64,000 bases of DNA from Bacteroidaceae bacterium (GTDB lineage Bacteria; Bacteroidota; Bacteroidia; Bacteroidales; Bacteroidaceae), in assembly GCA_017381015.1 (NCBI GenBank), contig JAFOCV010000045.1:5628-69627 (forward strand). Reading direction: 5' to 3'. The position numbers and the translations under genes were made by a program. Under the pieces are notes generated by a model. That model did no database searches, was not told the DNA's origin, and saw only the letters and a list, made by a program, of their open reading frames with translations. Of this stretch, positions 21,433 through 43,740 are shown one piece after another (within the stretch, counting starts at the first letter, position 1; each line of letters starts with the position of its first letter).

Positions 21433-21745
21433 AATATTTTTCTTCAATTAATTTTCTAAAATAGTATTATACATACCTTGGCAAGCACTTAGTAAAATTA
21501 CAAATCCCTTCTCATTGACCTCGTAACATGCTTTGTATACCACAAATTCGTTCCCAACGGCCTTCCTACTACTCTCGTAATATTCAAATTCGACCATCCG
21601 CTATGTCGAAATAGTATTTCTATTTCTCAAAAGCATTCAAACAACGTGTCAATAGGTAATCTGTTTTCACAAAATCATCATTCATGCAATACCAAAGGCT
21701 TGTGCAAATATACAACAATATTTTTACTATTAAAAAAGCTTATAT

Positions 21746-21923
21746 GTATAAATACATAATTTATATCACACAAGTAAAATATAATACGCATTCATACACT
21801 GTACTTTTTATTGGTTGCAAAATATATTCGTACAAATACGCCACCCTTTTTACTCTTAACAAAACTGTCGCGTATATATACATAATTTATTTTTCTATAG
21901 TAAAAATATACACGTATAAATAC
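21746..21923. repeat. four copies of a 10-bp quasi-palindrome GTAYAWATAC in AT-rich ORF-free DNA
   Basis: The copies are GTATAAATAC at 21746-21755, GTACAAATAC at 21830-21839, GTATATATAC at 21872-21881 and GTATAAATAC at 21914-21923. Two copies share the longer context GTATAWATACATAATTTAT. Confidence 0.6.
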
Positions 21924-22230
21924 ACAAGGTGTTAACACCACATAAAAAATGATTTTACGCATTTAAAAAGTAGTTCCCCAAGTCCAGAAACCGATTTTAA
22001 AAGTCTAAAAAACTATTCCAACATATTAAAAGCCTATTTCCAACATCACAACACCAGTTGCCACATCATCGGAATACTTTTCTAAAACTCCTACACCTAT
22101 TCCCCGCCCCTCCACATTGCATTATAAACCCACAACACCACTTCCAACCCACATAAAATGAAAAAAATAAATGGCAAAGAGCCCATCTAGAGCCACCAGG
22201 CCCCATCATCCATAATTTCCAGGATATCCC

Positions 22231-22370
22231 AGATTCTCCTAAGTCTTCCTAAACTCTAAACCACAAAATCATCATAGGTCTTCCTAGGACTTCCTAGGTC
22301 CTCCTAAGTTCTAAACCATAAAAATCCTCCTAGGACTTCCTAAAACCACCCAGAAAATCCTAAAACCACC
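22231..22370 (+). repeat. CCTAGG/CCTAAR short-period repeat array A
   Basis: About 12 degenerate 9-11-bp units, e.g. tcttCCTAGG acttCCTAGG tcctCCTAAG ... tcctCCTAGG acttCCTAAA. All units are in one orientation on a C/T-rich strand. Confidence 0.8.
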
Positions 22371-22465
22371 CTCCTTCCACCACTTCTTCTTACTCAGCCC
22401 TTTCGGTCTAAAGTACTCAGGTTCAGAAAAAGCAGATTATATTTGTTTTTTCGCTCACTTATTCG

Positions 22466-22473
22466 TACCTTTG
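22466..22473 (+). promoter_or_regulatory. promoter of the four-helix-bundle gene (-33 TTTG at 22442-22445, -7 TACCTTTG)
   Basis: The module is TTTG-N20-TACCTTTG. It reads tcgctcacttattcgtacctttg and recurs upstream of the TIR gene. Confidence 0.6.
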
Positions 22474-22487
22474 CTAAGAGAATGGTT

Positions 22488-22555
22488 CTCCTGAGCCCTA
22501 GGATTTCCTAGATTCTCCTAGGTCCTCCTTGTTCATCCTAGTCTCACCTAAAACA
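22488..22555 (+). repeat. CCTAGG short-period repeat array B
   Basis: The sequence is gagCCCTAGG atttCCTAG attctCCTAGG tcctccttg ttcatCCTAG tctcaCCTAAA. It lies between the promoter and the ATG at 22580. Confidence 0.75.
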
Positions 22556-22579
22556 ATAATCACCCAAAAACATCATACC

Positions 22580-23239
22580 ATGGAATATAACACAAAAGGA
22601 AAAGTCCTGAAAAAGGCCGTAGTATGGAAGAATCTCTTCTTCTACCGCAAAAGCGATGCTATATTCCAGCTTACGGTGGAGTTTTGCCGTCGTTTTCTCC
22701 CTGCTCATGGCGACCGCACAGTAGACCAGATGGTGCAGGCTGCCCGTTCAGGCAAACAGAATATAATAGAAGGCAGCGAGGATGGAATGACCAGTTCGGA
22801 GATGGAGATAAAACTGCTCAATGTGGCCAGAGGTAGCCTGCAGGAATTGAGAGAAGATTATATAGATTACCTAAACACCCACCACCTATGCCTATGGCCT
22901 GTCACAGAACCCAGGCAGGAGCGTCTGCGAGATTTCTGCCACTCTCACAACGATTTTGAAGACTATGCCCCCTTGGTAGATAAGATGAACGACGAGGAAT
23001 ATGCCAACCTGCTACTCACCCTATGCCACCAAACAGACAAGATGATGTGCTCCTATGTAGAGAAACTAGAAGAGCGCTTCGTCACCGAGGGAGGAATAAA
23101 GGAGCGTATGCACGCTGCACGTACGGGATATCGCCAACAACAAGACGAACACATGCTCCGCTTAGAAGAAGAAAACCGCCAACTACGTGCAGAAAACGAA
23201 AAACTCAAGAAGATGCTAGCAGAGCTAAACAAAATCTAA
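22580..23239 (+). CDS. four-helix-bundle protein (23S rRNA IVS / Avd-like fold) with C-terminal 'suffix' coiled coil
   Basis: 219 aa from the ATG at 22580; the ORF-track TTG start lies inside repeat array B. The motif QMVQAARSGKQNIIEGS...ARGSLQELREDY is typical of the four-helix-bundle family. The C-terminal part is heptad-rich (LRLEEENRQLRAENEKLKKMLAELNKI). Confidence 0.75.
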   Translation: MEYNTKGKVLKKAVVWKNLFFYRKSDAIFQLTVEFCRRFLPAHGDRTVDQMVQAARSGKQNIIEGSEDGMTSSEMEIKLLNVARGSLQELREDYIDYLNTHHLCLWPVTEPRQERLRDFCHSHNDFEDYAPLVDKMNDEEYANLLLTLCHQTDKMMCSYVEKLEERFVTEGGIKERMHAARTGYRQQQDEHMLRLEEENRQLRAENEKLKKMLAELNKI

Positions 23240-23269
23240 AGTCTTTTAGTATCCTGAATTTTCCAAAGC

Positions 23270-23452
23270 CCCCTCTAGGAAATCCTAGGTTTCGCTAGGT
23301 TACCCTAGGACCTCCTAGTACTTCCTAAAACTTCCTAAAACTTCCTAGAATCTCCTAGACTTTCACCTTACACCATCCTAGGCTATCCTAAGTCTTCCTA
23401 GAACCTCCTAGGCCCGCCTAGGATACCCTAAAACCAGATATCCATCTAGCGA
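23270..23452 (+). repeat. CCTAGG/CCTAAR short-period repeat array C
   Basis: About 16 consecutive units of 9-11 bp (one of 15). Twelve CTAG tetranucleotides fall within ~185 nt, e.g. aaatCCTAGG tttcgCTAGG ttacCCTAGG acctCCTAG tacttCCTAAA acttCCTAAA. Confidence 0.85.
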
Positions 23453-23564
23453 CAGATTAGAAAATCCTTAAAAAATCGCTCACTTATTAGTACTCAGACA
23501 TATCGTCTAAGTTACTTTCGCTCGGATTTTCCCATTTAAATTTGGAAAATCGCTCACTTAATCG

Positions 23565-23572
23565 TAACTTTG
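23565..23572 (+). promoter_or_regulatory. promoter of the TIR-WD40 operon (-33 TTTG at 23541-23544, -7 TAACTTTG)
   Basis: The module is TTTG-N20-TAACTTTG, 62 nt upstream of the ATG at 23634. The sequence tcgctcacttaatcgtaactttg is a near copy of 22451-22473. A decayed third copy lies at 23476-23497. Confidence 0.6.
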
Positions 23573-23633
23573 TCACTGTCTCACGCCGAAAAATTGTAAC
23601 AAACATAATCCTTAAATCAGACCGATATCAATA

Positions 23634-25154
23634 ATGAGCAACCAACAGAAAGATATATTCATCAGTTATTGCCGTCGCGACATTGATAAAGTTAAATGCT
23701 TCAAGAAAGAAATTGAGGACGAAACGCTGGCACAGTGTTGGATGGACCTGGAGGGTATTGAAAGTGGAAATCCTAAATTTACTAAAATGGTTATCCACGC
23801 CATCAACTCATGTCCAGTATTTCTCTTCATGCTCAGTGAGGCATCGCAGCAATCGGAAAATGCTCTAAAAGAGCTGGACTTTGCTTATGACAAATACCAT
23901 GAAGAAGGAAAGAAGGTCGTCATAGTATACATTGAGCCTTGTAAAATGAATGACGAATTAAAATTTGACTATAAAAAAGCCGACACTATTGACTGGCAGA
24001 ACACAATGCAACGTGAGAAACTCATTCTCGACTTAAAGAAATGGACAGGATACGAAGAGAAGGTAAAAAAGGATGAGAAAAATCATATTACAAAAGAAAG
24101 ATTGCAAACTATTCGCAAAGAAATAGAAGACATCAAGAACCATATAAACCATATAGATACAGAATTGATAACGCAAGAACATCAATTAATGGTTCTGCGC
24201 AATATAAAACATCAGGAGAGAGTTCTATTAACAAAATTGGCAGACGAGGAAGCTTTATTGATGGGTAAGCCACGTCCAATCCATTGCCATGCAAACATTC
24301 TTGAGGGACATACAAGAACTATATACTCTGCGGCATTCAGTCCGGATGGAAAACAAATTGTGTCTGCATCAGAAGATAAAAGCATACGTATTTGGGATAT
24401 GATGACTGGAGAATGCCTTTGGGTTATCAAAGGACATGCGGATGCCGTTTTCTCTGCATCATTCAGTCCGGATGGAAAGAAAATCATATCGGCATCTAGG
24501 AATGTACTCCGAATTTGGAATGCAGAAACAAAAGAATGCTTAAAAGTTCTCAAGGGAGGGGATTATGCAACTTTCAGCCCTGACGGGAAAGTCATCTTAA
24601 CAAGAGGATATGCAACTAGTCTCTTTATCCTAGATGCCGAAACAGGAGAACGAATCAATACGATAGAACATAAATCTTCTTTACGTCACGCTTCTTTCAG
24701 CCCTGATGGAAAAAACATTATCGCTGCATCTATGGATAACACCATTCGTATCTGGGATACCAAGACCGGGGAATGCATTAGAACAATTACAGAAAACGAA
24801 CTTCATTCTGCGACATTCAGCCCTGACGGGAATAGAATCTTATCGTCATCTGGGGATAACACCATTCGTATCTGGGATGCCAAGACAGGGAATATAATCA
24901 AAGCAATAAAAGGACATGAAGATTCTGTCTTTGAAGCATTTTTCAGTCCTGACGGAAAGAGAATTGTATCAACATCTTTGGACAAGACCGTCCGCATATG
25001 GGATGCTCAAACTGGAGAATGTATCACGCAGTTCGGAAACCAACTCACACCATACAAATTAATCAAACGGGCCACTTTAAGTCCAAACGAAGAAATAATC
25101 TTATTAATTATATCAGACAACACGATTCGCATCTCCGACATCCTCGAACACTAA
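23634..25154 (+). CDS. TIR domain / coiled-coil / seven-bladed WD40 repeat protein
   Basis: 506 aa. The TIR part has DIFISYCRRD and FLFMLSEASQQSENALKELDFA, with a candidate catalytic Glu80. Residues ~140-215 are a Lys/Glu heptad-rich coiled coil. Seven WD40 blades follow (GH..., FSPDGK x6, IRIWD x5). There is no Walker A motif. Confidence 0.85.
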   Translation: MSNQQKDIFISYCRRDIDKVKCFKKEIEDETLAQCWMDLEGIESGNPKFTKMVIHAINSCPVFLFMLSEASQQSENALKELDFAYDKYHEEGKKVVIVYIEPCKMNDELKFDYKKADTIDWQNTMQREKLILDLKKWTGYEEKVKKDEKNHITKERLQTIRKEIEDIKNHINHIDTELITQEHQLMVLRNIKHQERVLLTKLADEEALLMGKPRPIHCHANILEGHTRTIYSAAFSPDGKQIVSASEDKSIRIWDMMTGECLWVIKGHADAVFSASFSPDGKKIISASRNVLRIWNAETKECLKVLKGGDYATFSPDGKVILTRGYATSLFILDAETGERINTIEHKSSLRHASFSPDGKNIIAASMDNTIRIWDTKTGECIRTITENELHSATFSPDGNRILSSSGDNTIRIWDAKTGNIIKAIKGHEDSVFEAFFSPDGKRIVSTSLDKTVRIWDAQTGECITQFGNQLTPYKLIKRATLSPNEEIILLIISDNTIRISDILEH

Positions 25155-25188
25155 CCTCCTATCTGAATAAATTTTGATTTTACTTCAT

Positions 25189-25863
25189 ATGGAACTTTTA
25201 TCTTTTAAAAAAGCAAAAGAAACATTTGACGCAAATATATTTGAGCAGTCATGTAAGGATTTGTTTAGGCTAAGAGAAGAATTTGTCAATATATTCTCTA
25301 TTGATAAAATCGCATCTATGAAAATCGAAGAGTACGTTGTTGGATTACAAAGCCGAAATAGTTTCTGTTATTGGCTGGAACGCACCTTGCATAGTTTAGG
25401 CAATATTTCTGGGCAGGCAAGCTTTAAATTTGGCATTTGGTATTCTCCATCAAAAGAAACATACTGTTTCCAAGCAAAATTTGGAGACAATTATGAAGAA
25501 GCCTTCAAAAACGTCAAATCTGCAATATTAGAATTGCTTATTGCCGGCGAGAAAAAGGATTATAAATCCATCGCAAAAAATCCAATTAATTCTGCCATCA
25601 AAGGCAAGATTTTGGCTACATACTATCCAGATAAGTACATGAACATTTATGCATCCAAGCACCTTGACTATTATATGAAAGCTTTGGGAATTAGTTCTAC
25701 AGAATTACTTAAATCTGATGTGGTGTACAAAAGAGAGGCTTTGGTAAAATTCAAAAATAACGATGACGATATGAAGAACTGGAGCAATTATGTGTTTTCT
25801 GCATTCCTTTGGTCGCACTACCCCAAATCTCCAAGTAGAAATGGTATTAGTTTAAGAAACTAG
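25189..25863 (+). CDS. stand-alone protein resembling the N-terminal module of McrB-type (AAA+ GTPase) restriction proteins
   Basis: 224 aa from the ATG at 25189, 34 nt after the TIR-WD40 stop. The pattern IEEYVVG...NSFCYWLERTL..LGNISG....FKFGIWY...FG.NYEEAF..VK..I..LL.AG...DY..I....I...IKGKILATYYPDKYMNIY...HLDYYMKALGI matches my memory of the N-terminal region of many McrB-like ATPases. No AAA+ domain follows it. Confidence 0.55.
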   Translation: MELLSFKKAKETFDANIFEQSCKDLFRLREEFVNIFSIDKIASMKIEEYVVGLQSRNSFCYWLERTLHSLGNISGQASFKFGIWYSPSKETYCFQAKFGDNYEEAFKNVKSAILELLIAGEKKDYKSIAKNPINSAIKGKILATYYPDKYMNIYASKHLDYYMKALGISSTELLKSDVVYKREALVKFKNNDDDMKNWSNYVFSAFLWSHYPKSPSRNGISLRN

Positions 25864-26040
25864 AATTCACACACCATCCCTTTTTCCTGTGCATGTAATA
25901 TGTTTTGTGAGCTTCGGAGGCATAGGATGCGATGTCCCATTCAGCAACAAGGAAAATACAGATAGTTTTGTAAATAGAATGCTATGTACAGAATATTCTT
26001 TACCATAGATGCCCTAAAAGCACCCCTATGTAAAGTACAT

Positions 26041-26096
26041 ATTCAACAAAAATGGAGAGAACCGCATTGAGTATGGTTCTCTCCATTTTGTTGAAT
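26041..26096. terminator. strong bidirectional hairpin terminator at the right edge of island 1
   Basis: ATTCAACAAAAATGGAGAGAACC (26041-26063) pairs with GGTTCTCTCCATTTTGTTGAAT (26075-26096), giving about 22 bp with one bulge. It is flanked by A/T runs and lies 27 nt from the acyl-CoA synthetase stop. Confidence 0.8.
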
Positions 26097-26122
26097 AAAA
26101 GTATTCGCGACTTTGTATCTTT

Positions 26123-29832: not shown

Positions 29833-31815
29833 TTAGTTCTTATAGTTACGCTGCTGAACCTTGATAATCTCGTACTGGAGAGCCTCCTTGATAAGCTCAG
29901 GAGCAGCCTCGTCGTTGTTCTGGTATTCCCAGCAACCAACGTAGAAGAAGTTCTCGTCGTCGCGCTTAGCTTCGCCTTCCTCTGTCTGGTGCTCCTCACG
30001 GAAGTGACCACCACAACTTTCCTCACGATGTAGAGCATCGTATGCAATCAACTCGCCCATAAGGATGAAGTCGCGCAAGTGGATAGCCTTATCCAACTCT
30101 ACGTTCAAACCTTCCTTGGTACCGGGGATGAACAGGTTCTCGTTGAACTCCTTGCGGATAGCCTTCAAGAGCTTCAAACCCTCTTGCAAACCTTCCTTGG
30201 TACGACCCATACCTACGTGCTCCCACATGATGTGACCCAACTCCTTGTGGATAGAGTCAACAGAGCGCTTACCCTTGATGTTCATCAAACGGTCGATTTC
30301 TGCCTGAACAGCCTTCTCAGCCTCCTCAAACTCGGGAAGGTCGGTAGATAGGCGTGACCATAGCTTCTGGTCGGCCAAGTAGTTCTGTATAGTATAAGGT
30401 AGAACGAAGTAACCGTCGGCCAAGCCCTGCATAAGAGCAGAAGCACCTAGGCGGTTAGCACCGTGGTCAGAGAAGTTACACTCACCGATAGCGAATAGGC
30501 CGGGGATAGTGGTTTGCAACTCGTAGTCAACCCATACACCACCCATTGTGTAGTGGATAGCGGGGAAAATCATCATGGGATGATAGTACTCTACGCCATT
30601 AACGGTCTTAGCTAGCTTGCCGGGGTTAACGTCGGTAATCTCCTCGTACATCTCGAAGAGGTTGCCATAACGCTGAAGGATTTCCTTGATACCCAAACGC
30701 TGGATAGACTCAGAGAAGTCAAGGAATACAGCCAAACCAGTGTTGTTTACACCGAAGCCCTTGTCGCAACGCTCCTTAGCTGCACGTGAAGCTACGTCAC
30801 GGGGAACCAAGTTACCGAATGCGGGATAACGACGCTCCAAGTAGTAGTCGCGGTCTTCCTCGGGAATCTCATAACCCTGCTTGGTACCAGCCTGAAGTGC
30901 CTTAGCATCTTCCAACTTCTTGGGAACCCAGATACGACCATCGTTACGAAGAGACTCTGACATAAGAGTCAACTTTGACTGCTTGTCGCCATGTACGGGG
31001 ATACATGTGGGGTGAATCTGAACGTATGAGGGGTTAGCCATCACAGCACCCTTACGGTAGCACTGGATAGCAGCGGTGCAGTTACAACCCATAGCGTTGG
31101 TGCTGAGGAAGTATGCATTGCCATAACCACCAGTAGCGATTACAACAGCATTGGCACTGAAGCGAACGAGCTTACCAGTAACCAAATCCTTAGCGATGAT
31201 ACCACGAGCACGACCATCAACGATAACTACGTCTTCCATCTCGTAACGAGTGAAGAGCTTTACCTTACCGGTATTTACCATGCGGCTCAATGAAGAGTAA
31301 GCACCCAACAATAGCTGCTGACCTGTCTGACCCTTAGCATAGAAAGTACGGCTTACCTGAGCACCACCGAAAGAACGGTTGGCTAGCATGCCACCATATT
31401 CGCGAGCGAAGGGAACGCCCTGTGCCACACACTGGTCGATGATAGCGTTGCTCACCTCTGCCAAACGATATACGTTAGCCTCACGAGCACGATAGTCGCC
31501 ACCCTTTACTGTATCGTAGAATAGACGATAAACAGAGTCACCATCATTCTGATAGTTCTTTGCAGCATTGATACCACCCTGTGCAGCGATTGAGTGTGCA
31601 CGACGGGGTGAGTCTTGAATACAGAAATTATATACATTGAAACCCATCTCAGCCAAAGAAGCGGCAGCGCTGGCACCAGCCAAACCTGTACCTACTACGA
31701 TAACATCGAGCTTGAGTTTATTCTTGGGGTTAACCAAACGCTGGTGAGCCTTATAGTTGGTCCATTTTTCAGCAATAGGTCCCTCGGGGATTCTTGAATC
31801 TAAAGTCTTTGCCAT
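29833..31815 (-). CDS. frdA: fumarate reductase / succinate dehydrogenase flavoprotein subunit
   Basis: 660 aa. It has the FAD fold [10 protein letters not shown], the covalent-FAD His context [11 protein letters not shown], and the active-site motif HPT...R...H.TMGG. Confidence 0.92.
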
Positions 31816-34733: not shown

Positions 34734-35264
34734 ATGAATAAACAAACGTTATTACAGAATCTAAGAGTCGTTCCTGACTTTCCCATCCCTGGAATTCAAT
34801 TTCAAGACGTCACAACTCTCTTCCGCAACCCAGAATGCCTGAAGATAATGAGGGAAGAGGTTTTTAGACTTTATAAAGACAAGGGCATAACCAAGGTGGT
34901 GGGTTTGGAGAGTCGCGGTTTCCCTCTTGGTTGCACATTGGCAGCTGACCTCAATGCTGGATTCGTGATGGCTCGTAAACCCGGCAAACTACCAGGCGAG
35001 GTAATAGAACAAACCTACCAAAAAGAATATGGAGAGGACAAGATTTGCATGAGCTCTGATGCTATCTCATCTGACGATGTACTTCTTCTGCATGACGACC
35101 TTCTTGCTACTGGTGGCACGATGAAAGCTGTATATGACCTGGTAAAGCGTTTCAATCCAAAGAAAATATACATTAACTTTATCATCGAACTAACCATCGA
35201 GGGATTGCACGGCAGAGACATCCTGGATCCTGACGTGGAGATTACAACCCTACTTCGCATATAA
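34734..35264 (+). CDS. apt: adenine phosphoribosyltransferase
   Basis: 176 aa. It has the PRPP-binding motif VLLLHDDLLATGGT and an Apt-type N-terminus (PDFPIPGIQFQDVTTL). Confidence 0.9.
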   Translation: MNKQTLLQNLRVVPDFPIPGIQFQDVTTLFRNPECLKIMREEVFRLYKDKGITKVVGLESRGFPLGCTLAADLNAGFVMARKPGKLPGEVIEQTYQKEYGEDKICMSSDAISSDDVLLLHDDLLATGGTMKAVYDLVKRFNPKKIYINFIIELTIEGLHGRDILDPDVEITTLLRI

Positions 35265-35285
35265 TTATAAGCAAAGGCATCTAGC

Positions 35286-37106
35286 ATGAAAAGAGATGAG
35301 ATAATAACAAAACTGAAATCTATAGCAGGGAGTTTACCAGAGCTCCCTGGTTGTTATCAATATCTTGATGAAAACGGAACAATAATATACGTTGGCAAGG
35401 CTAAAAACCTCAAAAGAAGGGTAAATAGTTATTTCAATAGAGAGCACGACAACTTTAAAACCAGCATCCTCGTTAGTAAAATTCGCGATATAAAATACAT
35501 CGTGGTTAATAGCGAAGAGGACGCTCTCCTATTGGAAAACAACCTTATCAAGCAATGGAACCCCAGATACAATATCCTGCTAAAAGACGGTAAAACTTAT
35601 CCTAGCATTTGTATAACCAACGAGTATCTGCCACGTATAATATATACGAGAAAAATAGTCAAAGGTGCGGGATTATATTTCGGTCCTTATAGTCACATCC
35701 CTACCCTACAGGCATTATTGGAACTGATTAAAAACCTCTATCCGCTTCGTACATGCAAAGAGAAAATCTCCCATGAAAGCATCTGTTCTGGCAAGCACAA
35801 GGTGTGCCTGGAATACCATATTAAGAATTGCAAGGGGCCTTGTTGCGGACTTCAAACCAGGGACGAATACCTCAGTTACATAAATGAGGCAAAAGAAATT
35901 CTAAAAGGAAACACCAAGGATATTCAGAGAAAGATGCTTTCTGAAATGCAATCGCTTGCAGAAGAATTAAGATTTGAAGAAGCCGAAGTAATCAAGAAAA
36001 AATACGATTTACTCGAGAATTATCGCAATAAGAGCGAGGTTGTAAACAATACCCTTCATAATATAGACGTGTTCTATATTGAGAACGATGAAAAGGAGGC
36101 CTATATCAACTATCTGCACGTGGTAAATGGATGCATCAACCAAGCATTTACCTTTGAATACAGTAAAAAACTGGGTGAAACCGCAGAAGAATTACTCGTT
36201 GCTGGCATTGGTGAAATGAGAGCCAGATACGGAAGCCAGAGTAAAGAAATCATCGTTCCGTTTCACGTGGAACTAAATTTGGAAAATATAGAGTTCACCA
36301 TTCCTCAAAGAGGGGATAAAAAGAAACTCTTGGAGCTATCAAAACTAAATACTCTGCAATATAAAAAGGACCGATTAAATCAGAAAGATAAGTTGAATCC
36401 TGAGCAAAAACAGGTAAGATGTCTGAAGGAATTGCAAGACGCTCTTGGTATAGAAACCCTACCATTGCATATAGAATGCTTTGATAATAGTAATATCAGT
36501 GGAGATGATGCCGTGGCTGCATGCATAGTGTTCAGAAAGGGAAAACCGAGCAAAAAAGAGTACCGAAAATACAATATAAAAACGGTGACAGGACCCGATG
36601 ATTACGCCTCAATGAAAGAGGTTGTTCGTCGTAGATACACCCGAATGATAAGCGAGAACACTCCCCTACCCAATCTGATTATAGCGGACGGTGGAAAGGG
36701 CCAAATGGAGGTAATAAGAGAGGTAGTGGAAGACGAACTAAATCTGGAAATACCTATCGCTGGATTGGCCAAAAACGAGCATCACAAGACCAACGAATTG
36801 CTATTTGGATTCCCTCAAATGAGCATTGGATTAAGACTTGATAGCGCTCTGTTTCATATGCTCACACACATACAAGACGAGGTACATCGCTTTGCAATCA
36901 CCTTCCATAGAGACAAGAGAAGCAAGCGACAAACGGCTAGCGAATTGGACACAATAACTGGCATTGGTCCTAAGACAAAGGAACTACTTCTGAAGGAGTT
37001 TAAGAGCCTCACTCGTATCAAAAAGGCCACTTTGGAAGAGTTGCAGAAATGCATCGGTGAAAGCAAAGGAAATACCTTATTTGCATATTTGAATCATCAG
37101 GAATAA
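35286..37106 (+). CDS. uvrC: excinuclease ABC subunit C
   Basis: 606 aa. It has a GIY-YIG domain (GCYQYLDENGTIIYVGKAKNLKRRV), a UVR domain, an Endo-V-like nuclease domain and a C-terminal helix-hairpin-helix (LDTITGIGPKTKELLLKEF). Confidence 0.95.
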   Translation: MKRDEIITKLKSIAGSLPELPGCYQYLDENGTIIYVGKAKNLKRRVNSYFNREHDNFKTSILVSKIRDIKYIVVNSEEDALLLENNLIKQWNPRYNILLKDGKTYPSICITNEYLPRIIYTRKIVKGAGLYFGPYSHIPTLQALLELIKNLYPLRTCKEKISHESICSGKHKVCLEYHIKNCKGPCCGLQTRDEYLSYINEAKEILKGNTKDIQRKMLSEMQSLAEELRFEEAEVIKKKYDLLENYRNKSEVVNNTLHNIDVFYIENDEKEAYINYLHVVNGCINQAFTFEYSKKLGETAEELLVAGIGEMRARYGSQSKEIIVPFHVELNLENIEFTIPQRGDKKKLLELSKLNTLQYKKDRLNQKDKLNPEQKQVRCLKELQDALGIETLPLHIECFDNSNISGDDAVAACIVFRKGKPSKKEYRKYNIKTVTGPDDYASMKEVVRRRYTRMISENTPLPNLIIADGGKGQMEVIREVVEDELNLEIPIAGLAKNEHHKTNELLFGFPQMSIGLRLDSALFHMLTHIQDEVHRFAITFHRDKRSKRQTASELDTITGIGPKTKELLLKEFKSLTRIKKATLEELQKCIGESKGNTLFAYLNHQE

Positions 37107-37150
37107 AGCTAAAATGAAAGAAAAATAACAATAAAACAAGGATATTAGAC

Positions 37151-38038
37151 ATGGAAGAAAACAAGTATGAACGCATGTTGGCCCAGTACAACACCAACAT
37201 CAATGACGAAGAAGTCACTCGTAAGGTTAAGAGAATAGTTGAGGACGGGGTGGAAGAAAACAACACCCTTGATATAAAGAAATTCCTCTTTGGTAGCATA
37301 GAACTAACCTCACTAAAAGCCACTGATAGCGATGAAAGCATTCTAAAACTAGTAGAGAATGTAAACAAATTTGAGGACGAATACATGGAGCTACCTCACG
37401 TGGCCACCATCTGTGTATACCCATGCTTTGCACAGATAGTGAACCAAAGCCTGGAGGTAGAAGGTGTGGAATTGGCATGCGTAAGCGGCTCATTCCCAAG
37501 CTCTCAGGCACTCATCGAGGTCAAGGTGGCAGAGACAGCTCTAGCCATAAAAGACGGCGCTACAGAGATAGATATAGTAATGAGTATCGGCAAATTCCTG
37601 AGCGGTGATTACGAAACAGTATGTGATGAAATCAGCGAATTGAAGGCTGTTTGCGGCGACAAAAAGCTGAAAGTTATTCTTGAAACTGGGTTGTTTGGCA
37701 ATGCCTCAGACATCAAGACCGCAAGCCTTTTGGCCATGTACTCTGGTGCTGATTATATCAAGACAAGTACTGGCAAGGAGAATCCTGCTGCCACACCAGA
37801 AGCCGTATATGTAATGTGCGAAGCTATCAAAGAGTACCACGAAAAGACAGGCATCAAGATTGGTCTTAAACCAGCAGGCGGTTTGAACACCGTTCGTGAT
37901 GCGCTTACCTATTATACTATAGTAAAGGAAGTTCTTGGAGAGGAGTGGTTAACAAATGAACTCTTCCGTCTTGGCACCAGCCGTTTGGCAAATCTTTTGC
38001 TAAGCGAAATAGTTGGCAAGGAAGTAAAGTTCTTCTAA
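37151..38038 (+). CDS. deoC: deoxyribose-phosphate aldolase (long Bacteroidota form)
   Basis: 295 aa. The class I aldolase barrel has the Schiff-base Lys in DYIKTSTGK and a second Lys in LKVILETG. Confidence 0.85.
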   Translation: MEENKYERMLAQYNTNINDEEVTRKVKRIVEDGVEENNTLDIKKFLFGSIELTSLKATDSDESILKLVENVNKFEDEYMELPHVATICVYPCFAQIVNQSLEVEGVELACVSGSFPSSQALIEVKVAETALAIKDGATEIDIVMSIGKFLSGDYETVCDEISELKAVCGDKKLKVILETGLFGNASDIKTASLLAMYSGADYIKTSTGKENPAATPEAVYVMCEAIKEYHEKTGIKIGLKPAGGLNTVRDALTYYTIVKEVLGEEWLTNELFRLGTSRLANLLLSEIVGKEVKFF

Positions 38039-38186
38039 CTGAGAATCATAAACTCTATATTATCTGAGAAGCTCCCCTACCCTACTCTAGTCACTCGCAC
38101 ATAGCATTTTTGCCCATTTTGCGTCTGAAATACGTGTGCAGATGGCCGAAAAATAAGAAAAAAGGGATTCTCAGAGAGCTAAAAAA

Positions 38187-38220
38187 GGCCTTAATAGATG
38201 AATTTCAGTCTATTAGGGCC
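38187..38220 (+). terminator. rho-independent terminator
   Basis: GGCCTTAATAGA (38187-38198) pairs with TCTATTAGGGCC (38209-38220) with one mismatch, followed by ATTTTTTA. Confidence 0.6.
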
Positions 38221-38373
38221 ATTTTTTATGTTGCAGATAGATTTTATTCTAGATTGAGAATGCGTATTTTTGCAAAATTTTAGCCACTCGCGGTGGATTT
38301 CCTTCAAAACACTCAACATCCACCATCTAATGACCACTAAACGATAACTGACATCTGACATTCGACATTTAAT

Positions 38374-38580
38374 AACTGTTAACTGTTAATTGTTAACTGT
38401 TAAGCATCATCTGTCACTTGTCAACCATTAACTGTCATCTGTCATCTGTCAACCATCAAGCATTAACCATTTTTACTATCTGATTACTGATTACTGATTA
38501 CCAAAGCAGGAACTGAAAACTGAAAAACCGAAAACTAGGTTACAGAAAAATAGCAACTGAATATCTGAATATCCGAATAA
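38374..38580 (+). repeat. mosaic of four microsatellite-like blocks (periods 7, 7, 8, 8)
   Basis: Block 1 is fourteen in-phase heptamers at 38374-38471 (aactgtt x4 variants, atctgtc x3, aaccatt/aaccatc, aagcatc/aagcatt). Block 2 is ctgatta x3 at 38480-38500. Block 3 is aactgaaa/actgaaaa/accgaaaa at 38511-38534. Block 4 is ctgaatat x2 plus ccgaataa at 38557-38580. Confidence 0.9.
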
Positions 38581-38682
38581 AGAGGCTGAAAGGAATAAGC
38601 AAACCAGTTGACCAATCATGATCAACCAAACTATACAAGTCAAAAAGAAAAACAAGAGCTAAATCAGCATCAAGAGCTAAGA

Positions 38683-39663
38683 CTATAACTTTCTCTGAGA
38701 AACAAAGTCGAGATACAATTGCAGAGTTTTTGCTATCTCGCGCTCCCCAACTTCATCCAGCAAACCGCTAGCCATATGAGAGAAATCAGTCATGGCGGCT
38801 TCTGCATAAAGCACACCACCCTCGTGTATGGTCAGTTGAACCAGATGTTCTATTTCCTCTACAGATGCTTCAAAACGTCTAACCTTTAGAGCCAATTCCT
38901 GGACAAATGCATTCTTGCGAGAAGCAAAGATTACGGGTAGAGTCAACTTGCCCTCCTTCATATCATTGCCCGTTGGTTTGCCTACATCCTGCGTGTTGTC
39001 ATAATCAAAAATATCGTCTCTCAATTGGAAACAAATTCCTAACAACATACCAAAGCGTTTCATCGTGTAGATATAACCTTCGTTGTCGGAAGTAAGTGAT
39101 GCACCAGCTTCGGCACAAGCGGAGAAGAGAGATGCCGTTTTCTTCCTAATCACATCATAGTATCTACTTTCCTCAATCTCCTGGGAATCAATGTTTGCCA
39201 ATTGGAGAAGTTCTCCGTCAGAGAGCATTACACCAACGTTGGAAATCAACTCTACAACACGGAAATTACCACAAGCCACTGCATGTTCAATAGCCTTACT
39301 CAAGAGGAAATCACCAACAAGAACAGCAGCCTTATTATCCAGAAGATTATTTACACTCTTCTGACCACGACGGCGGTCGCTCTCGTCCACAATATCATCG
39401 TGTACCAAAGAAGCCGTATGAAGCAATTCGAAAGCAATGGCGGCATGCAAAACCTTGTCATCCAATAGTCCTTCATTATTACTTCCACCACGAGCCGCCA
39501 ACATCACCAACAAGGGACGCATCTGCTTGCCCTTGCGCTGAAGTAAATGCTCGAGAGCAACGTTGAGAAGTGCGTTATCGGACGTAAGCGATTCGGCAAA
39601 CATTTCATTGTAACGTGCCAAATCCTGCTCCACTGGTTTTCTAATCTCCTTTAGTAATTCCAC
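38683..39663 (-). CDS. polyprenyl diphosphate synthase (octaprenyl/all-trans type)
   Basis: About 326 aa if translation starts at the GTG (39661-39663). The first Asp-rich motif is DDIVDESDRRRG and the second is DDIFD. The ORF-track ATG at 39708 would overlap the promoter box, so the start is uncertain (the alternative ATG is at 39606). Confidence 0.85.
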   Translation of the reverse strand: MELLKEIRKPVEQDLARYNEMFAESLTSDNALLNVALEHLLQRKGKQMRPLLVMLAARGGSNNEGLLDDKVLHAAIAFELLHTASLVHDDIVDESDRRRGQKSVNNLLDNKAAVLVGDFLLSKAIEHAVACGNFRVVELISNVGVMLSDGELLQLANIDSQEIEESRYYDVIRKKTASLFSACAEAGASLTSDNEGYIYTMKRFGMLLGICFQLRDDIFDYDNTQDVGKPTGNDMKEGKLTLPVIFASRKNAFVQELALKVRRFEASVEEIEHLVQLTIHEGGVLYAEAAMTDFSHMASGLLDEVGEREIAKTLQLYLDFVSQRKL

Positions 39664-39695
39664 TTTGATTGTTGTAAATTTATATTTTTGATGCG

Positions 39696-39703
39696 CAAAA
39701 TTA
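39696..39703 (-). promoter_or_regulatory. -7 promoter box (TAATTTTG on minus strand)
   Basis: The plus strand reads CAAAATTA, 33 nt upstream of the GTG at 39663. Confidence 0.45.
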
Positions 39704-39737
39704 CACAAAAAGACCGAAAAATCTCACTTTTTTTCAT

Positions 39738-39745
39738 TATTTTTG
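39738..39745 (+). promoter_or_regulatory. -7 promoter box TATTTTTG for polA
   Basis: Matches TAnnTTTG 23 nt upstream of the ATG at 39768. Confidence 0.55.
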
Positions 39746-39767
39746 TGTCCAAATATGTTAAAAAGAT

Positions 39768-42347
39768 ATGAAATTATTCCTTCTAGATGCATATGCTCTC
39801 ATCTATAGAGCCTATTATGCCTTTATCAAGAACCCACGCTACAATTCCAAGGGTGAAAACACAAGCGCCATTCTTGGTTTTGTAAATACCCTGGAAGATG
39901 TACTTCGCAATATGCAACCCACCCATCTGGGTGTGGCTTTTGACCCTCACGGAGGTACCTTCCGTCATGAAAAATACCCTGATTATAAGGCTCAGCGCGA
40001 AGAAACACCCGAAGCCATACGCTTTGCCGTGCCCAAAATCAAAGAGATACTAAAGGCATACCACATACCCGTATTGGAGGTTTCTGGATACGAGGCAGAC
40101 GATGTGATAGGCACATTGGCCAAACAAGCCGACCAACAAGGTATCTGCACCTATATGATGACTCCCGACAAGGATTATGGCCAATTGGTTACCCCAAACG
40201 TGAGCATGTATCGCCCACCCGTGGGTAAGGCTGAAGCTCAGATAATGGGCCCTGAGGAAATATGCGAGAAGTGGGGAATAGAATCCCCCCTTCAGGTTAT
40301 AGATATCCTGGGCCTCATGGGCGATGCGAGCGACAATATCCCTGGTTGTCCTGGTGTGGGAGAAAAGACCGCATGTACGCTTGTACAACAATGGGGAAGT
40401 ATAGATAATCTATTGAATAATATTGACAAACTAAAAGGAGCCATTCAGAAGAAGATATCCGAAAACACGGAACAAATCAAACAAAGCTACTGGTTGGCCA
40501 CAATTGTTACGGATGCACCCATTACTTTAGACCTGGAAGCGCTAAAAATCACCGAACCCGATAATCAGGCACTACAGGAAATATATGAACAATTGGAGTT
40601 CCGTCAGTTGCTAAAGAAGAAACAAGCCAATGCCACCTCTTCCGAGGAGAAAAAGGCTACTCAGAAAGAAAAGAAAACGAGACATCAGGAGAAGTTTAGC
40701 GATGGAAGTATACAAGGCGACCTCTTTGCCAATTTTGACGATTTTGGTAAGGCTGAAGGTGGTGCCGAAAAAGCATCATCGGCAAGTGAAAAGCCCGTAT
40801 ACGACCTATTTAATCTGCCACCAGAGGGCGAATTTGGCATCGTTAGCGAGGCACCCTTCTTCCTGGAAGGAAATACTATCATTGGTCACGATTTGAAAAC
40901 ACACTGGAAGGAACTTACCCAACAGTTCCCTCACCTGATGGAGTGCCCTCGAGGCGAGGAGGGAGCCAAAGAAAAGCCATTGCTCTTTGACACCGCCATA
41001 GCACACTATCTTCTGCATCCCGAGATGCGCCATGGCCTTGATTATCTGAAGGATGCTTACAGATGCCCCACTATCCTATCGCTAAAGCAACTCTTCGAGA
41101 CACAACTGCATGAGAGGGACCTATGGAGCGTGTTTGAGGACATAGAAATGCCACTGATGTGCGTACTGGCACGCATGGAGAGTGCTGGTGTGCGCATAGA
41201 CGAAAAGGGACTTGCCGAAACCAGTCAGCACTACACTCAAGAGATGCTACGACTGGAGGAAGAAATATACATCCTGGCCGGTCAGAGATTCAACATAGCA
41301 TCGCCTCGTCAAGTGGGCGAAATACTGTTTGATGTACTCAAACTGGATTCCAAGGCCAAGAAGACAAAAACCGGTCAGTATGTAACCGGAGAAGAGGTAC
41401 TGGAAGGTCTGCGCAACAAGCACGAAATAGTAGGCAAAATCCTTGAGCACAGAGGACTGAAAAAATTGCTTGGCACGTACATCGATGCCCTACCCCGCTT
41501 GGTCAATCCAGATACCGGACATATACACACAACCTTCAATCAGACGGTCACAACCACCGGTCGCCTTTCATCCTCCAACCCTAATCTGCAAAACATCCCC
41601 GTACGCGATGCCATGGGCAAGGAAGTGCGCAAGGCTTTCATCCCCGACGAAGGACACATCCTCCTCTCTGCCGACTATAGCCAGATAGAACTACGCATCA
41701 TGGCACACCTGAGCCAAGACCCCAATCTTGTGCAGGCCTTTCTGGACGGAGAAGACATCCATGCAGCCACGGCAGCTAAGATTTTCCACAAGGAAATAGG
41801 CGAAGTAACCTCCGATGAGCGACGCGCTGCCAAAACGGCTAATTTCGGCATTATTTACGGCATCAGTGCCTTCGGCCTTGCCGAACGGTTAGGATGCAGC
41901 AGAAGCGAAGCAAAGCAGCTTATAGATGGTTATTTCGAGAGCTATCCCAACGTAAAGCAATACATGGAGCAAAGCATAGCCACTGCACGCGAAAATGGAT
42001 ATACCCAAACCATCTTCAAGCGTCGCTGTCCCCTACCCGATATCAATAGTCACAATGCCGTGGTGCGAGGATATGCCGAGCGCAATGCCATCAATTCGCC
42101 CATCCAGGGAAGTGCCGCAGACATCATGAAGATAGCCATGATAAGGGTGGACAATCGCATGCGCCACGAAGGCCTCAAGAGCCGTATGATATTGCAGGTA
42201 CACGACGAACTAATCTTCACCGTACTACCCGAAGAGAAAGAGGCGCTCCAAGCCCTGGTTATTGAAGAGATGCAGAGTGCCGCACAATTGGCCATACCGT
42301 TGATAGCCGATGTGGGTTGGGGCAAGAATTGGCTTGAAGCACATTAA
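39768..42347 (+). CDS. polA: DNA polymerase I
   Basis: 859 aa. It has a 5' nuclease domain (YAFIKNP..., GYEADDVIGTLA, GDASDNIPGCPGVGEKTA) and polymerase motifs A (LLSADYSQIELRI), B (RRAAKTANFGIIYG) and C (LQVHDEL). The middle domain lacks the proofreading motifs (see findings). Confidence 0.95.
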   Translation: MKLFLLDAYALIYRAYYAFIKNPRYNSKGENTSAILGFVNTLEDVLRNMQPTHLGVAFDPHGGTFRHEKYPDYKAQREETPEAIRFAVPKIKEILKAYHIPVLEVSGYEADDVIGTLAKQADQQGICTYMMTPDKDYGQLVTPNVSMYRPPVGKAEAQIMGPEEICEKWGIESPLQVIDILGLMGDASDNIPGCPGVGEKTACTLVQQWGSIDNLLNNIDKLKGAIQKKISENTEQIKQSYWLATIVTDAPITLDLEALKITEPDNQALQEIYEQLEFRQLLKKKQANATSSEEKKATQKEKKTRHQEKFSDGSIQGDLFANFDDFGKAEGGAEKASSASEKPVYDLFNLPPEGEFGIVSEAPFFLEGNTIIGHDLKTHWKELTQQFPHLMECPRGEEGAKEKPLLFDTAIAHYLLHPEMRHGLDYLKDAYRCPTILSLKQLFETQLHERDLWSVFEDIEMPLMCVLARMESAGVRIDEKGLAETSQHYTQEMLRLEEEIYILAGQRFNIASPRQVGEILFDVLKLDSKAKKTKTGQYVTGEEVLEGLRNKHEIVGKILEHRGLKKLLGTYIDALPRLVNPDTGHIHTTFNQTVTTTGRLSSSNPNLQNIPVRDAMGKEVRKAFIPDEGHILLSADYSQIELRIMAHLSQDPNLVQAFLDGEDIHAATAAKIFHKEIGEVTSDERRAAKTANFGIIYGISAFGLAERLGCSRSEAKQLIDGYFESYPNVKQYMEQSIATARENGYTQTIFKRRCPLPDINSHNAVVRGYAERNAINSPIQGSAADIMKIAMIRVDNRMRHEGLKSRMILQVHDELIFTVLPEEKEALQALVIEEMQSAAQLAIPLIADVGWGKNWLEAH

Positions 42348-42941: not shown

Positions 42942-43222
42942 AATACACTCACCCCCACCCTGCCATCCGTAGTGACAACAACAGGTACAAGGGCATTTTT
43001 CAAAGAAATGAGCACAAAATGGAGCACTTTTGACTCAATTGGTGATTTTGCGTCCTTCATGCGCCAGGAGAGAAAAATTTTGCAAAATGGGGATTTTTTC
43101 ACATATCGAAGCTCAAAACTGAGCATTTTCAGATGCTAAAAACATGCCAAAAGTGTAGTCAGCCAACGATTCTCTCCGATGCCCGTCTTCTGAAACTGGC
43201 TCTACAGGCCAATTCTGAGCCA

Positions 43223-43271
43223 AGGTGTAGTCAGTGAGTCAGTAGTGTCAGTACTTTTTTTGACTACACCT
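43223..43271. other. 11-bp-stem hairpin built from a locally repeated word GTGTAGTCA
   Basis: AGGTGTAGTCA (43223-43233) pairs with TGACTACACCT (43261-43271). A third, direct copy (agtgtagtcag) lies at ~43153-43163. Confidence 0.5.
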
Positions 43272-43686: not shown

Positions 43687-43740
43687 TTTTGCGATTAAGC
43701 GAGGGTAGAATCAAGTTTACTTGAATTAGACGAGCGTGAG
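43687..43740 (+). repeat. copy 1 of a ~55-nt direct repeat bracketing the lipoprotein cassette
   Basis: The sequence ttttgcgattaagcgagggtagaatcaagtttacttgaattagacgagcgtgag differs from copy 2 (46585-46640) at about 5 positions. It contains the mini-hairpin TCAAG-ttta-CTTGA. Confidence 0.85.

What the first reader, a model, noticed from the sequence alone, without database searches (positions are those of the whole stretch)
23541..25863. TIR / coiled-coil / 7xWD40 protein co-transcribed with an orphan McrB-N-terminal-like protein: candidate undescribed anti-phage module
Seen: a 506-aa ORF has its own Bacteroidota promoter (TTTG-N20-TAACTTTG). Residues ~6-135 carry TIR hallmarks: DIFISYCRRD, and FLFMLSEASQQSENALKELDFA with a conserved Glu at position 80 (codon 23871-23873). 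Residues ~140-215 are a Lys/Glu heptad-rich coiled coil. Residues ~222-506 are seven WD40 blades (FSPDGK x6, IRIWD x5). There is no Walker A/P-loop anywhere, so this is not a TIR-STAND (Avs/NACHT-type) protein. A 224-aa ORF follows 34 nt downstream on the same strand. The pair sits in an AT-richer island between core genes: single-line spot counts gave 19/60 G+C at 23941-24000 and 29/60 at 30001-30060.

Known: prokaryotic TIR domains (Thoeris, TIR effectors of CBASS/Pycsar, SPARTA, TIR-Avs) are NADases or signal-nucleotide synthases in abortive-infection immunity. WD40/TPR propellers are the ligand sensors of STAND immune proteins.

Inference: this is a compact sensor (WD40) plus effector (TIR) immune protein. 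Its clustering may be driven by the coiled coil rather than an NTPase, possibly with help from the DNA-reader-like partner. I do not recognise this two-gene architecture as any named defence system.
Basis: partly seen in the sequence, partly recalled or inferred. Interest (0 to 1): 0.85.

Follow-up and report, generated by a model that had tools for sequence, protein, structure and literature searches.

The report
TIR-WD40 gene beside nuclease-less PD-T4-1 fragment
A gut Bacteroidaceae chromosome carries a probable anti-phage protein (a TIR "NAD-burning" head on a WD40 sensor, with no ATPase), and the small gene after it is not a dedicated partner but a separately acquired, nuclease-less relative of the known PD-T4-1 defence protein.

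Summary
The sequence observations hold. ORF A (23634-25154, 506 aa) is TIR (Pfam TIR_2, E=4.5e-15), then one 70-residue heptad helix, then a 7-bladed WD40 propeller. It has no Walker A motif, a Bacteroidota-type promoter, and Glu80 at the TIR catalytic position. ORF B (25189-25863, 224 aa) follows 34 nt downstream, in an AT-richer islet.

The "undescribed two-gene module" is not supported. A and B co-occur only in near-identical copies of this same locus. Every diverged A homologue (70-75% identity) lacks B. Every diverged B homologue (43-88%) lacks A. In an 88%-identical copy, DNA homology stops at B's gene borders.

B is not McrB-N-like. It is the N-terminal ~215-aa domain of the PD-T4-1 family (PADLOC E=4e-51, profile positions 10-217 of 383) without the PD-(D/E)xK nuclease. 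Elsewhere this domain is fused to NOV_C, HNH or McrB-type AAA_5 modules.

A belongs to a sizeable Bacteroidales family of ATPase-less TIR-WD40 proteins. At least 81 of the top 120 hits have this architecture. Members sit in TIR gene arrays, mobile elements and defence islands, with TIR heads and sensor tails shuffled.

Both genes are under purifying selection. A is a credible, uncharacterised single-gene immune candidate. This is a new variant of a known kind and of moderate interest.

The parts
23541..23572 (+). Bacteroidota-type promoter motif TTTG-N20-TAACTTTG upstream of gene A. It is part of a duplicated segment that is also found before the four-helix-bundle gene.
   Evidence: 6 matches in the window against 0.84 expected. 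repeats D6/D7 (22437-22473 against 23536-23572, 78% identical).
23634..25154 (+). Gene A: a 506-aa cytoplasmic TIR / coiled-coil / WD40 protein (NCBI MBQ5912089.1, 'TIR domain-containing protein', Bacteroidaceae MAG).
   Evidence: dN/dS 0.08-0.15 against homologues.
23655..24044 (+). TIR domain, residues 8-137.
   Evidence: Pfam TIR_2 E=4.5e-15. A profile of this TIR matches solved TIRs: TIR-STING 1e-12, TLR6, SARM1 5.5e-8, L6, Cat1, RUN1, AbTir, SPARTA TIR-APAZ. The AF2 model shows alternating strands and helices.
23871..23873 (+). Codon GAG for Glu80, at the position of the TIR catalytic glutamate (motif S68-x2-S71-x2-S74-x5-E80-L).
   Evidence: codon. Invariant in alignments A2 and A3. Aligned with the Glu of 'SEWCHYEL' in TLR6 and 'SDWCWDEL' in Cat1 and of 'SEWSKFEM' in TIR-STING.
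24051..24263 (+). A single long helix, residues 140-210, with heptad periodicity. It is the putative coiled-coil oligomerisation element and stands where STAND proteins carry an NTPase.
   Evidence: AF2 helix H140-210. Heptad register with 57% against 19% L/I/V/M.
24297..25139 (+). Seven-bladed WD40 beta-propeller, residues 222-502, the putative ligand sensor.
   Evidence: Pfam WD40 1.1e-53 and propeller families. 28 strands in the model, pLDDT about 90. Seven DNA repeat copies spaced 111-135 nt apart (D4).
25189..25863 (+). Gene B: a 224-aa stand-alone homologue of the N-terminal domain of PD-T4-1-family nucleases, without a nuclease domain (NCBI MBQ5912090.1, hypothetical protein). It is an independently placed cassette with no detected promoter of its own.
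   Evidence: PADLOC PD-T4-1 E=4.4e-51 on profile positions 10-217 of 383. Family architectures. DNA homology to L026 spans exactly 25184-25866. dN/dS 0.08-0.16.
26040..26097 (.). Strong hairpin between the convergent gene B and the AMP-binding gene. It is a likely bidirectional terminator that ends the A-B transcript.
   Evidence: -31.6 kcal/mol, z = -10.2, 0 of 200 shuffles as stable. The simple terminator scan missed it, probably because its 9-nt loop exceeds that scan's 3-8 nt limit.

Best explanation
Two evolutionarily independent, horizontally acquired defence-type genes lie side by side in a 4.7-kb AT-rich islet of a gut or rumen Bacteroidaceae chromosome. In this strain they are probably read from one promoter.

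Gene A is a self-contained, ATPase-less immune receptor. Inferred steps: the 7-bladed WD40 propeller binds a phage-derived ligand, most likely a protein. The 70-residue coiled coil holds the protein as a dimer or oligomer. Ligand binding then brings the N-terminal TIR domains into the head-to-tail packing that TIR enzymes need to form their active site around the conserved Glu80. NAD+ is then hydrolysed, or converted to a signal nucleotide, and the infected cell stops supporting phage growth. Shown here: the domain architecture, the conserved Glu, the absence of an NTPase, purifying selection, the defence and mobile-element context of homologues, and head/tail domain shuffling. Not shown: the ligand, oligomerisation, NADase activity and phage protection.

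Gene B is a stand-alone copy of the N-terminal domain of the PD-T4-1 family. In other proteins this domain is fused to PD-(D/E)xK (NOV_C), HNH or McrB-type AAA_5 modules, so it is most likely a DNA or target-recognition module. B has no nuclease and is not an obligate partner of A.
For: Architecture of A.

Catalytic-position Glu.

Family of A: 81 of the best 120 hits carry an N-terminal TIR plus WD40. None of these has a Walker A motif. Six are single-propeller proteins of about 450-506 aa and about 75 are double-propeller proteins of 620-885 aa.

Contexts of A homologues:
- A Rep3/TraO element with WYL, HIRAN and AbiEii genes.
- Next to a type IIG RM gene.
- Arrays of at least 5 TIR genes.

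Shuffling: P0030 and P0036 share nearly the same propeller but have different TIR heads. An 85%-identical copy of the window's TIR head is fused to a coiled coil plus a TM helix in L028.

Independence of A and B:
- tblastn of both proteins against the 24 loci held at that point finds them together only in L008-L011, which are copies of this same locus.
- L025 to L028, fetched afterwards, were read from their gene and ORF lists plus a DNA comparison. None shows the pair.
- L026 (B at 88% identity) has an unrelated upstream gene, and DNA homology is confined to 25184-25866.
- GC is 0.394 for A and 0.341 for B.

Identity of B: PADLOC; a full HMMER scan giving 1806 representative proteins, 101 of the 148 listed ones with stored sequences being 341-450 aa; NOV_C, HNH and AAA_5 fusions.

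Selection: dN/dS is 0.08-0.15 for A and 0.08-0.16 for B.

Precedent: an effector plus 7-bladed propeller protein without an NTPase is a validated defence protein (an Mrr nuclease fused to a beta-propeller, Vassallo et al. 2022, PMC9519451).
Against: - No experiment on any member of the family has been found.
- PADLOC gives only weak TIR hits for A (ThsB E=0.007, SAVED_TIR E=4e-4).
- TLR-type scaffolding TIRs also carry a Glu at this position, so Glu80 does not prove enzyme activity.
- The Trp usually found 4 residues before the Glu is Asn in A.
- In this window the islet holds no other recognised defence gene. Its neighbours are a four-helix-bundle protein and a DUF6261 protein.
- The 34-nt gap, the shared promoter, and the T5orf172-B operon seen in another lineage leave room for a facultative A-B interaction.
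- The context sample is small: about 4 A lineages and about 8 B lineages.
Confidence: 0.6

Rival explanations
1. A and B form a true two-gene defence system. B reads phage DNA and helps cluster or activate the TIR-WD40 protein.
For: The genes share a strand, a 34-nt gap and a single promoter motif, and a terminator appears only after B. The B domain is a recognition-type module that partners with varied effectors, either by fusion or as an adjacent gene. One example is a T5orf172/PDC-S57 nuclease gene 6 nt upstream of a B homologue.
Against: The pairing is found only in 96-97% identical copies of the same locus. Four diverged A lineages lack B. Eight diverged B lineages lack A. At 88% identity, B sits after an unrelated gene and homology ends at the gene borders. 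The GC content of the two genes differs.
Confidence: 0.1
2. A is a ThsB-like signal-making TIR sensor of a dispersed Thoeris-type system. Its effector, a ThsA-like protein, is encoded elsewhere. A does not kill by itself.
For: Homologues lie in arrays of TIR genes, some of which hit Pfam ThsB_TIR. This resembles the multi-thsB loci of Thoeris. A itself has weak PADLOC ThsB hits (E=0.007), and a paralogous TIR-WD40 protein scores 2.6e-5.
Against: No SIR2, SLOG or Macro (ThsA-type) gene lies next to A in the window or in the TIR arrays examined. The ThsB scores are far below family level. A matches the generic TIR_2 model best.
Confidence: 0.15
3. A is not immune. Its TIR and WD40 domains act as protein-protein scaffolds in some housekeeping or signalling complex. 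B is a decaying remnant of a PD-T4-1 gene.
For: TIR and WD40 are both generic interaction domains. No defence assay exists. The window's flanks are housekeeping genes. One B homologue sits between guaA and an alcohol dehydrogenase gene.
Against: The gene is patchy and carried on an islet. GC is low. Homologues sit on mobile elements and among defence genes. Head/tail shuffling is typical of conflict genes. B keeps a length of about 220 aa in at least 27 clusters, has 41 invariant columns and dN/dS of 0.08-0.16. No nuclease remnant exists anywhere in the window.
Confidence: 0.12

Closest known systems
TIR-STAND receptors (TIR-effector Avs / bacterial NACHT / NLR-like proteins)
   Same: An N-terminal TIR effector and a C-terminal repeat sensor (WD40 or TPR) in one cytoplasmic polypeptide. 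The expected logic is that ligand binding drives oligomerisation, which activates the TIR.
   Different: There is no NTPase. A has no Walker A motif and no NTPase family hit. The 85 residues between the TIR and the propeller are a single helix. The defining STAND module is therefore absent.
Mrr-nuclease + 7-bladed beta-propeller single-gene defence protein of Vassallo et al. 2022 (PMC9519451)
   Same: An N-terminal effector fused to a 7-bladed propeller with no NTPase. It is experimentally validated as anti-phage.
   Different: The effector is a PD-(D/E)xK/Mrr nuclease, not a TIR. No coiled-coil linker is described. No sequence relationship was tested here.
DSR2 (a SIR2 NADase head plus a repeat sensor, activated by binding a phage tail-tube protein; from my own knowledge of Garb et al. 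2022 and later structural work)
   Same: An NAD+-degrading head and a large repeat sensor in one protein, with no NTPase. Activation is by direct binding of a phage structural protein.
   Different: It uses SIR2 rather than TIR and HEAT-like repeats rather than WD40. It is not homologous to A.
Thoeris ThsB
   Same: A bacterial TIR protein that senses infection. thsB genes often occur as several adjacent paralogues, as in the TIR arrays around A's homologues.
   Different: Thoeris needs ThsA, and none is present. The ThsB profile scores for A are marginal (E=0.007).
PD-T4-1 (single-gene PD-(D/E)xK nuclease defence system; PMC9519451, PMC10952713, bioRxiv 10.1101/2025.07.10.664194), compared with gene B
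   Same: B is clearly homologous to the N-terminal ~215 residues (E=4.4e-51). It is 52% identical to the N-terminal domain of the 409-aa protein P0149, which matches the full-length PD-T4-1 model.
   Different: B lacks the C-terminal NOV_C/DUF3883 nuclease. According to the 2025 preprint, that nuclease forms the dimer core. B therefore cannot work as PD-T4-1 does.
   Same: The resemblance is positional only. The B domain is found N-terminal to McrB-type AAA_5 modules in some proteins (P0260, P0180).
   Different: There is no Pfam hit. B's predicted fold is all-alpha with one beta-hairpin and has no significant PDB match.

Membership tests
TIR domain (Pfam TIR_2) | A significant match to the family profile above the curated cut-off. 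| tested here: met
   56.6 bits against a cut-off of 28, E=4.5e-15, residues 8-123. A profile of this TIR matches solved TIR structures down to 1e-12.
TIR domain (enzymatic NADase subclass) | A conserved catalytic Glu at the position of SARM1 E642 or the plant-TIR 'xEL' motif. | tested here: met
   E80 is invariant and aligns with the Glu of TLR6 and Cat1 and of TIR-STING. The equivalence to SARM1 E642 ('DWVHKEI') rests on my own knowledge of that motif. This was tested by sequence alignment only, with no structural superposition.
TIR domain (enzymatic NADase subclass) | NAD+ hydrolase or cyclase activity. | not testable with these tools
   This needs biochemistry.
STAND / Avs / NLR-like receptors | A central P-loop NTPase (NACHT or NB-ARC type) between the effector and the repeats. 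| tested here: not met
   No Walker A motif. No NTPase family in Pfam or NCBIfam. Residues 140-210 form one helix.
Thoeris | A ThsB-type TIR protein. | tested here: inconclusive
   PADLOC ThsB1 E=0.007, 14 bits. No Pfam ThsB_TIR hit for A.
Thoeris | An adjacent ThsA effector (SIR2-SLOG or TM-Macro). | tested here: not met
   The neighbours are a four-helix-bundle protein, a DUF6261 protein, B and an AMP-binding enzyme. None was found in the homologous TIR arrays either.
PD-T4-1 (gene B) | The N-terminal domain of the family. | tested here: met
   PDLC04021 E=4.4e-51, residues 6-214 of B on profile positions 10-217 of 383.
PD-T4-1 (gene B) | The C-terminal PD-(D/E)xK (NOV_C/DUF3883) nuclease domain. 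| tested here: not met
   B ends at residue 224. Full-length relatives carry NOV_C at about residues 270-390. No nuclease-domain remnant appears anywhere in the window by tblastn.
McrB N-terminal domain (DUF3578) (gene B) | Sequence or fold similarity to the McrB N-terminal DNA-binding domain. | tested here: not met
   No Pfam family at E<=1. The best Foldseek PDB hit has E=0.7 (OGG1/MutY, TM 0.31) and no McrB entry appears.
Two-gene defence system (A+B operon) | Gene adjacency conserved across diverged homologues. | tested here: not met
   Co-occurrence is seen only in L008-L011 (96-97% DNA identity). It is absent in all other A loci and B loci.

The most novel reading that the evidence does not exclude
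Gut Bacteroidales carry an NLR-independent receptor repertoire. It consists of arrays and solitary copies of TIR proteins whose enzymatic heads and sensor tails (single or double WD40 propellers, coiled coil plus TM helix, and others) are freely recombined. In these proteins a coiled coil, not a STAND NTPase, supplies the oligomerisation step. Gene A would be a minimal member of this repertoire. In addition, the nuclease-less PD-T4-1 N-domain (B), which appears to carry no promoter of its own, would be a portable recognition cassette that can retarget whatever effector gene it lands beside: a TIR-WD40 gene here, a T5orf172 nuclease or a type IV restriction enzyme elsewhere.
Probability: 0.2. 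Interest if true: 0.75.

Novelty: new variant of a known kind. Interest (0 to 1): 0.42.

Why it matters
If gene A protects against phage, a TIR effector can be coupled to a WD40 sensor through a plain coiled coil, without the ATP-driven switch of NLR and STAND receptors. That would be the simplest TIR receptor design so far. It would also be a tractable model for how ligand binding alone triggers TIR assembly, in a clade (gut and rumen Bacteroidales) whose phage defence is poorly charted.

The shuffled TIR arrays found around its homologues would be a natural library of head and sensor combinations.

Gene B matters as a caution and as a lead. Profile-based defence finders could call it PD-T4-1 on score alone, although it lacks the nuclease. 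Its conserved stand-alone form suggests that the recognition domain of that family has a function of its own.

Tried and rejected
1. McrB-N/DUF3578 identity of B: no Pfam or NCBIfam hit and no sequence match to any solved structure.

2. Fold assignment for B: the AF2 model is good (pLDDT 84.6), but Foldseek finds nothing significant in PDB. The best hits are HhH-GPD glycosylases (OGG1, MutY) at E>=0.7 and TM about 0.3. BFVD also gives nothing. I considered an HhH-like reading of the invariant 'NPINSxxKGKIL' stretch. I do not claim it, and the Asp at 'YPD' is not invariant.

3. B as a recent pseudogene or truncation: rejected. About 27 clusters keep a length of about 220 aa. dN/dS is 0.08-0.16. 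No nuclease remnant exists downstream or elsewhere in the window. Only 260 nt, containing a terminator, lie before the next gene.

4. A conserved partner for A: a 115-aa upstream gene is shared by L001 and L012, but those two loci are one lineage and the gene is absent from the window. The four-helix-bundle gene is upstream of A only in this locus.

5. Phage or prophage origin: neither A nor B was found in IMG/VR contigs. There is no tRNA in the window and no Rfam family in 20-27 kb.

6. The genome-collection scan for B gave only 3 loci. The metagenome scan with the TIR-coil part of A gave 1 locus.

7. Literature: no paper in the searchable library uses the term 'TIR-WD40'. Recent DUF4062 TIR-like NADase papers concern NACHT-containing TEP1-like proteins, not this architecture.

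8. The sigma-70 and simple terminator scans were uninformative for a Bacteroidota sequence.
Full report
**1. Observation**

- The window holds a 506-aa ORF at 23634-25154 (+), gene A. A 224-aa ORF at 25189-25863 (+), gene B, follows 34 nt downstream.
The general Bacteroidota motif occurs 6 times in the window against 0.84 expected by shuffling.
- On its own, the N-terminal 221 aa matches Pfam TIR_2 over residues 8-123 (E=4.5e-15, 56.6 bits, cut-off 28).
- Residues 222-503 match WD40 and many propeller families.
- An AlphaFold2 model (pLDDT 82) shows an alpha/beta TIR at 8-137, one uninterrupted helix at 140-210, and 28 strands making a 7-bladed propeller.
- The helix has a clear heptad register: 57% L/I/V/M at a/d positions against 19% elsewhere.
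- There is no Walker A motif. Residue 80 is Glu, codon GAG at 23871-23873.
The islet 21448-26122 has GC 0.385 against 0.47 in both flanks (profile).
- Minor errors in the finding: FSPDGK occurs 5 times and IRIWD 3 times.

**2. What gene B is**

- B has no Pfam or NCBIfam hit.
- It matches the PADLOC model of the named system PD-T4-1 at E=4.4e-51, but only over profile positions 10-217 of 383.
- A full HMMER scan of 1.84 billion representatives found 1806 relatives. Of the 148 listed ones with stored sequences, 101 are 341-450 aa, 25 are longer and 16 are 260 aa or shorter.
- The typical relative carries B's domain at the N-terminus followed by a NOV_C/DUF3883 domain. An example is P0149 (409 aa, 52% identical). 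It matches the PD-T4-1 model end to end.
- Other relatives fuse the same domain to HNH nucleases that resemble type IV restriction enzymes, or to McrB-type AAA_5 modules.
- PD-T4-1 is a single-gene system listed among PD-(D/E)xK nucleases (PMC10952713). It is predicted to dimerise through its nuclease core (bioRxiv 10.1101/2025.07.10.664194).
- B therefore has the recognition-type N-domain of this family and lacks the nuclease. No nuclease remnant exists in the window. Only 260 nt, holding a strong hairpin terminator (-31.6 kcal/mol, z=-10.2), lie before the next gene.
- B is not a decaying fragment. About 27 clusters keep a length of about 220 aa with 41 invariant columns. dN/dS is 0.08 and 0.16.
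- Its predicted fold (pLDDT 84.6, all-alpha with one hairpin) has no significant match in PDB or BFVD and none by sequence.
- The 'McrB-N-like' label is not supported as homology. The architectures do suggest a DNA or target-reader role, which is an inference.

**3. Is A+B a system?**

I fetched the genomic context of diverged homologues of both genes.

- Near-identical copies: the pair is present, in the same synteny (DUF6261 / four-helix bundle / A / B / AMP-binding), only in contigs that are 96-97% identical to the window.
- A homologues at 70-72% identity lie on a Rep3/TraO element. They follow WYL, HIRAN and unknown genes and precede a convergent AbiEii pair. Others lie near a type IIG RM gene.
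- A homologues at 75% and 53-60% identity lie inside arrays of TIR genes. None of these has B.
- B homologues lie in many different contexts:
  - alone between guaA and an alcohol dehydrogenase gene;
  - 6 nt after a T5orf172/PDC-S57 nuclease gene;
  - before an 89-aa acidic protein and a type IV restriction enzyme;
  - beside VapE and AAA mobile-element genes.
- At 88% identity, B follows an unrelated gene, and DNA homology runs exactly over 25184-25866.
- tblastn of A and B against the 24 loci held at that point found them together only in the near-identical set. The four loci fetched later (L025-L028) were checked from their gene and ORF lists and a DNA comparison, and none holds the pair.
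- A and B also differ in GC, 0.394 against 0.341.

The adjacency is best read as two cassettes that landed in one islet. They are probably co-transcribed here, because no promoter motif was found in the 34-nt gap.

**4. What gene A is and how it probably works**

- Of the 120 best database hits, 81 have an N-terminal TIR followed by WD40 repeats, and none of these has a Walker A motif. Six are single-propeller proteins (451-506 aa). About 75 are double-propeller proteins (620-885 aa) with a short helical linker.
- NCBI names them 'TIR domain-containing protein'. The window's own protein is MBQ5912089.1 from a Bacteroidaceae MAG.
- Glu80 is invariant and aligns with the conserved Glu of solved TIRs. 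In the double-propeller relatives the motif is 'SEWVNKEI'. From my own knowledge this is close to SARM1's 'DWVHKE(642)I'.
- Heads and tails are shuffled. P0030 and P0036 share an almost identical propeller but have different TIRs. An 85%-identical copy of the window's TIR head is fused to a charged coiled coil and a TM helix in L028.
- dN/dS is 0.08-0.15.
- These are the marks of a conflict gene.
- The most likely mechanism is inferred, not shown. The propeller binds a phage product. The coiled coil pre-assembles the protein. Binding drives TIR-TIR packing and NAD+ cleavage at Glu80.
- The design parallels TIR-STAND receptors but lacks their NTPase. It also parallels NTPase-less effector-sensor proteins, such as the validated Mrr-nuclease plus 7-bladed propeller defence protein (PMC9519451) and DSR2 (own knowledge).

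**5. Rivals**

- A ThsB-like signalling role is possible because of the TIR arrays and weak ThsB scores. No ThsA-type gene was seen.
- A facultative A-B cooperation cannot be excluded.
- A non-immune scaffold role is unlikely given the context and the shuffling.

**6. Verdict**

A is a credible, uncharacterised, ATPase-less TIR-WD40 immune candidate. The 'undescribed two-gene module with an orphan McrB-N-like partner' is not supported.
- Novelty: a new variant of a known kind.
- Interest: 0.42.

Noticed in passing
window 22221-22370, 22497-22558, 23277-23438: Intergenic arrays of a 10-nt phased unit (T/C)CCTA(G/A)NNNN, with up to 11 copies per repeat family. They flank the four-helix-bundle gene (23S rRNA IVP + TIGR04258 suffix, 22580-23239) on both sides. 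A perfect 16-nt inverted repeat, CCTAGGATTTCCTAGA / TCTAGGAAATCCTAGG, at 22497-22512 and 23274-23289 brackets that gene. It may mark an invertible segment or a protein-binding array, or it may simply follow from the palindromic CCTAGG core.
   Followed up: partly
window 22437-22473, 23472-23492, 23536-23572: The promoter-bearing segment (TTTG...CGCTCACTTA(T/A)TCGTA(C/A)CTTTG) is duplicated. One copy lies before the four-helix-bundle gene, one before gene A, and a third partial copy lies in between.
   Followed up: partly
window 21460-22440: About 1 kb without a convincing gene. It is very AT-rich, with repeated 'tatatgtataaatacataatttatat'-like stretches at about 21740 and 21875. There is no Rfam match. 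Relative to the near-identical contigs L008 and L009, the window has 110 extra nt at 22148-22257.
   Followed up: no
L015/L016 2495-11645; L025 60-7537; L028 8-3636: Arrays of 3 to at least 5 consecutive genes that each start with a TIR domain but have different tails: WD40, unknown domains of 500-600 aa, or a coiled coil plus a TM helix. The same propeller occurs with two different TIR heads (P0030 and P0036). No ThsA-like gene was recognised.
   Followed up: partly
L017 2548-4459 (also L018, L019): A tight operon: a T5orf172/MUG113 nuclease (PADLOC candidate PDC-S57, E=4e-60), a B-like gene 6 nt downstream, then two small unknown genes. It sits in an island with HEPN-MNT, WYL and Bro-N/ANT genes. 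A fused version also exists: the B domain plus a PDC-S57 C-terminal part in P0151.
   Followed up: partly
L021 601-4430; L027 433-1462: A B-like gene is followed by a conserved 89-aa highly acidic protein (88% identical between the two loci). In L021 a 922-aa PLD-helicase-DUF3427 type IV methyl-directed restriction enzyme comes next (PADLOC E=9e-106).
   Followed up: partly
L001 4769-10812: On a Rep3/TraO/SSB mobile element, the 70%-identical A homologue sits after WYL, HIRAN (PDC-M03B-like), a weakly HD-like 225-aa gene and two small unknown genes. It sits before a convergent AbiEii / DUF6922 pair.
   Followed up: partly
P0150 (390 aa) and P0149 against PADLOC TmtA models: The whole PD-T4-1-like module, the B-type N-domain plus NOV_C, aligns to the C-terminal ~360 residues of TmtA models (for example PDLC03964 positions 1174-1537). 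TmtA proteins therefore seem to end in the same two-domain unit.
   Followed up: no
window 35000-40000, 43000-47000, 53000-54000: Further low-GC stretches (0.35-0.43 against a window mean of 0.457) that may be other acquired islands. They were not examined.
   Followed up: no
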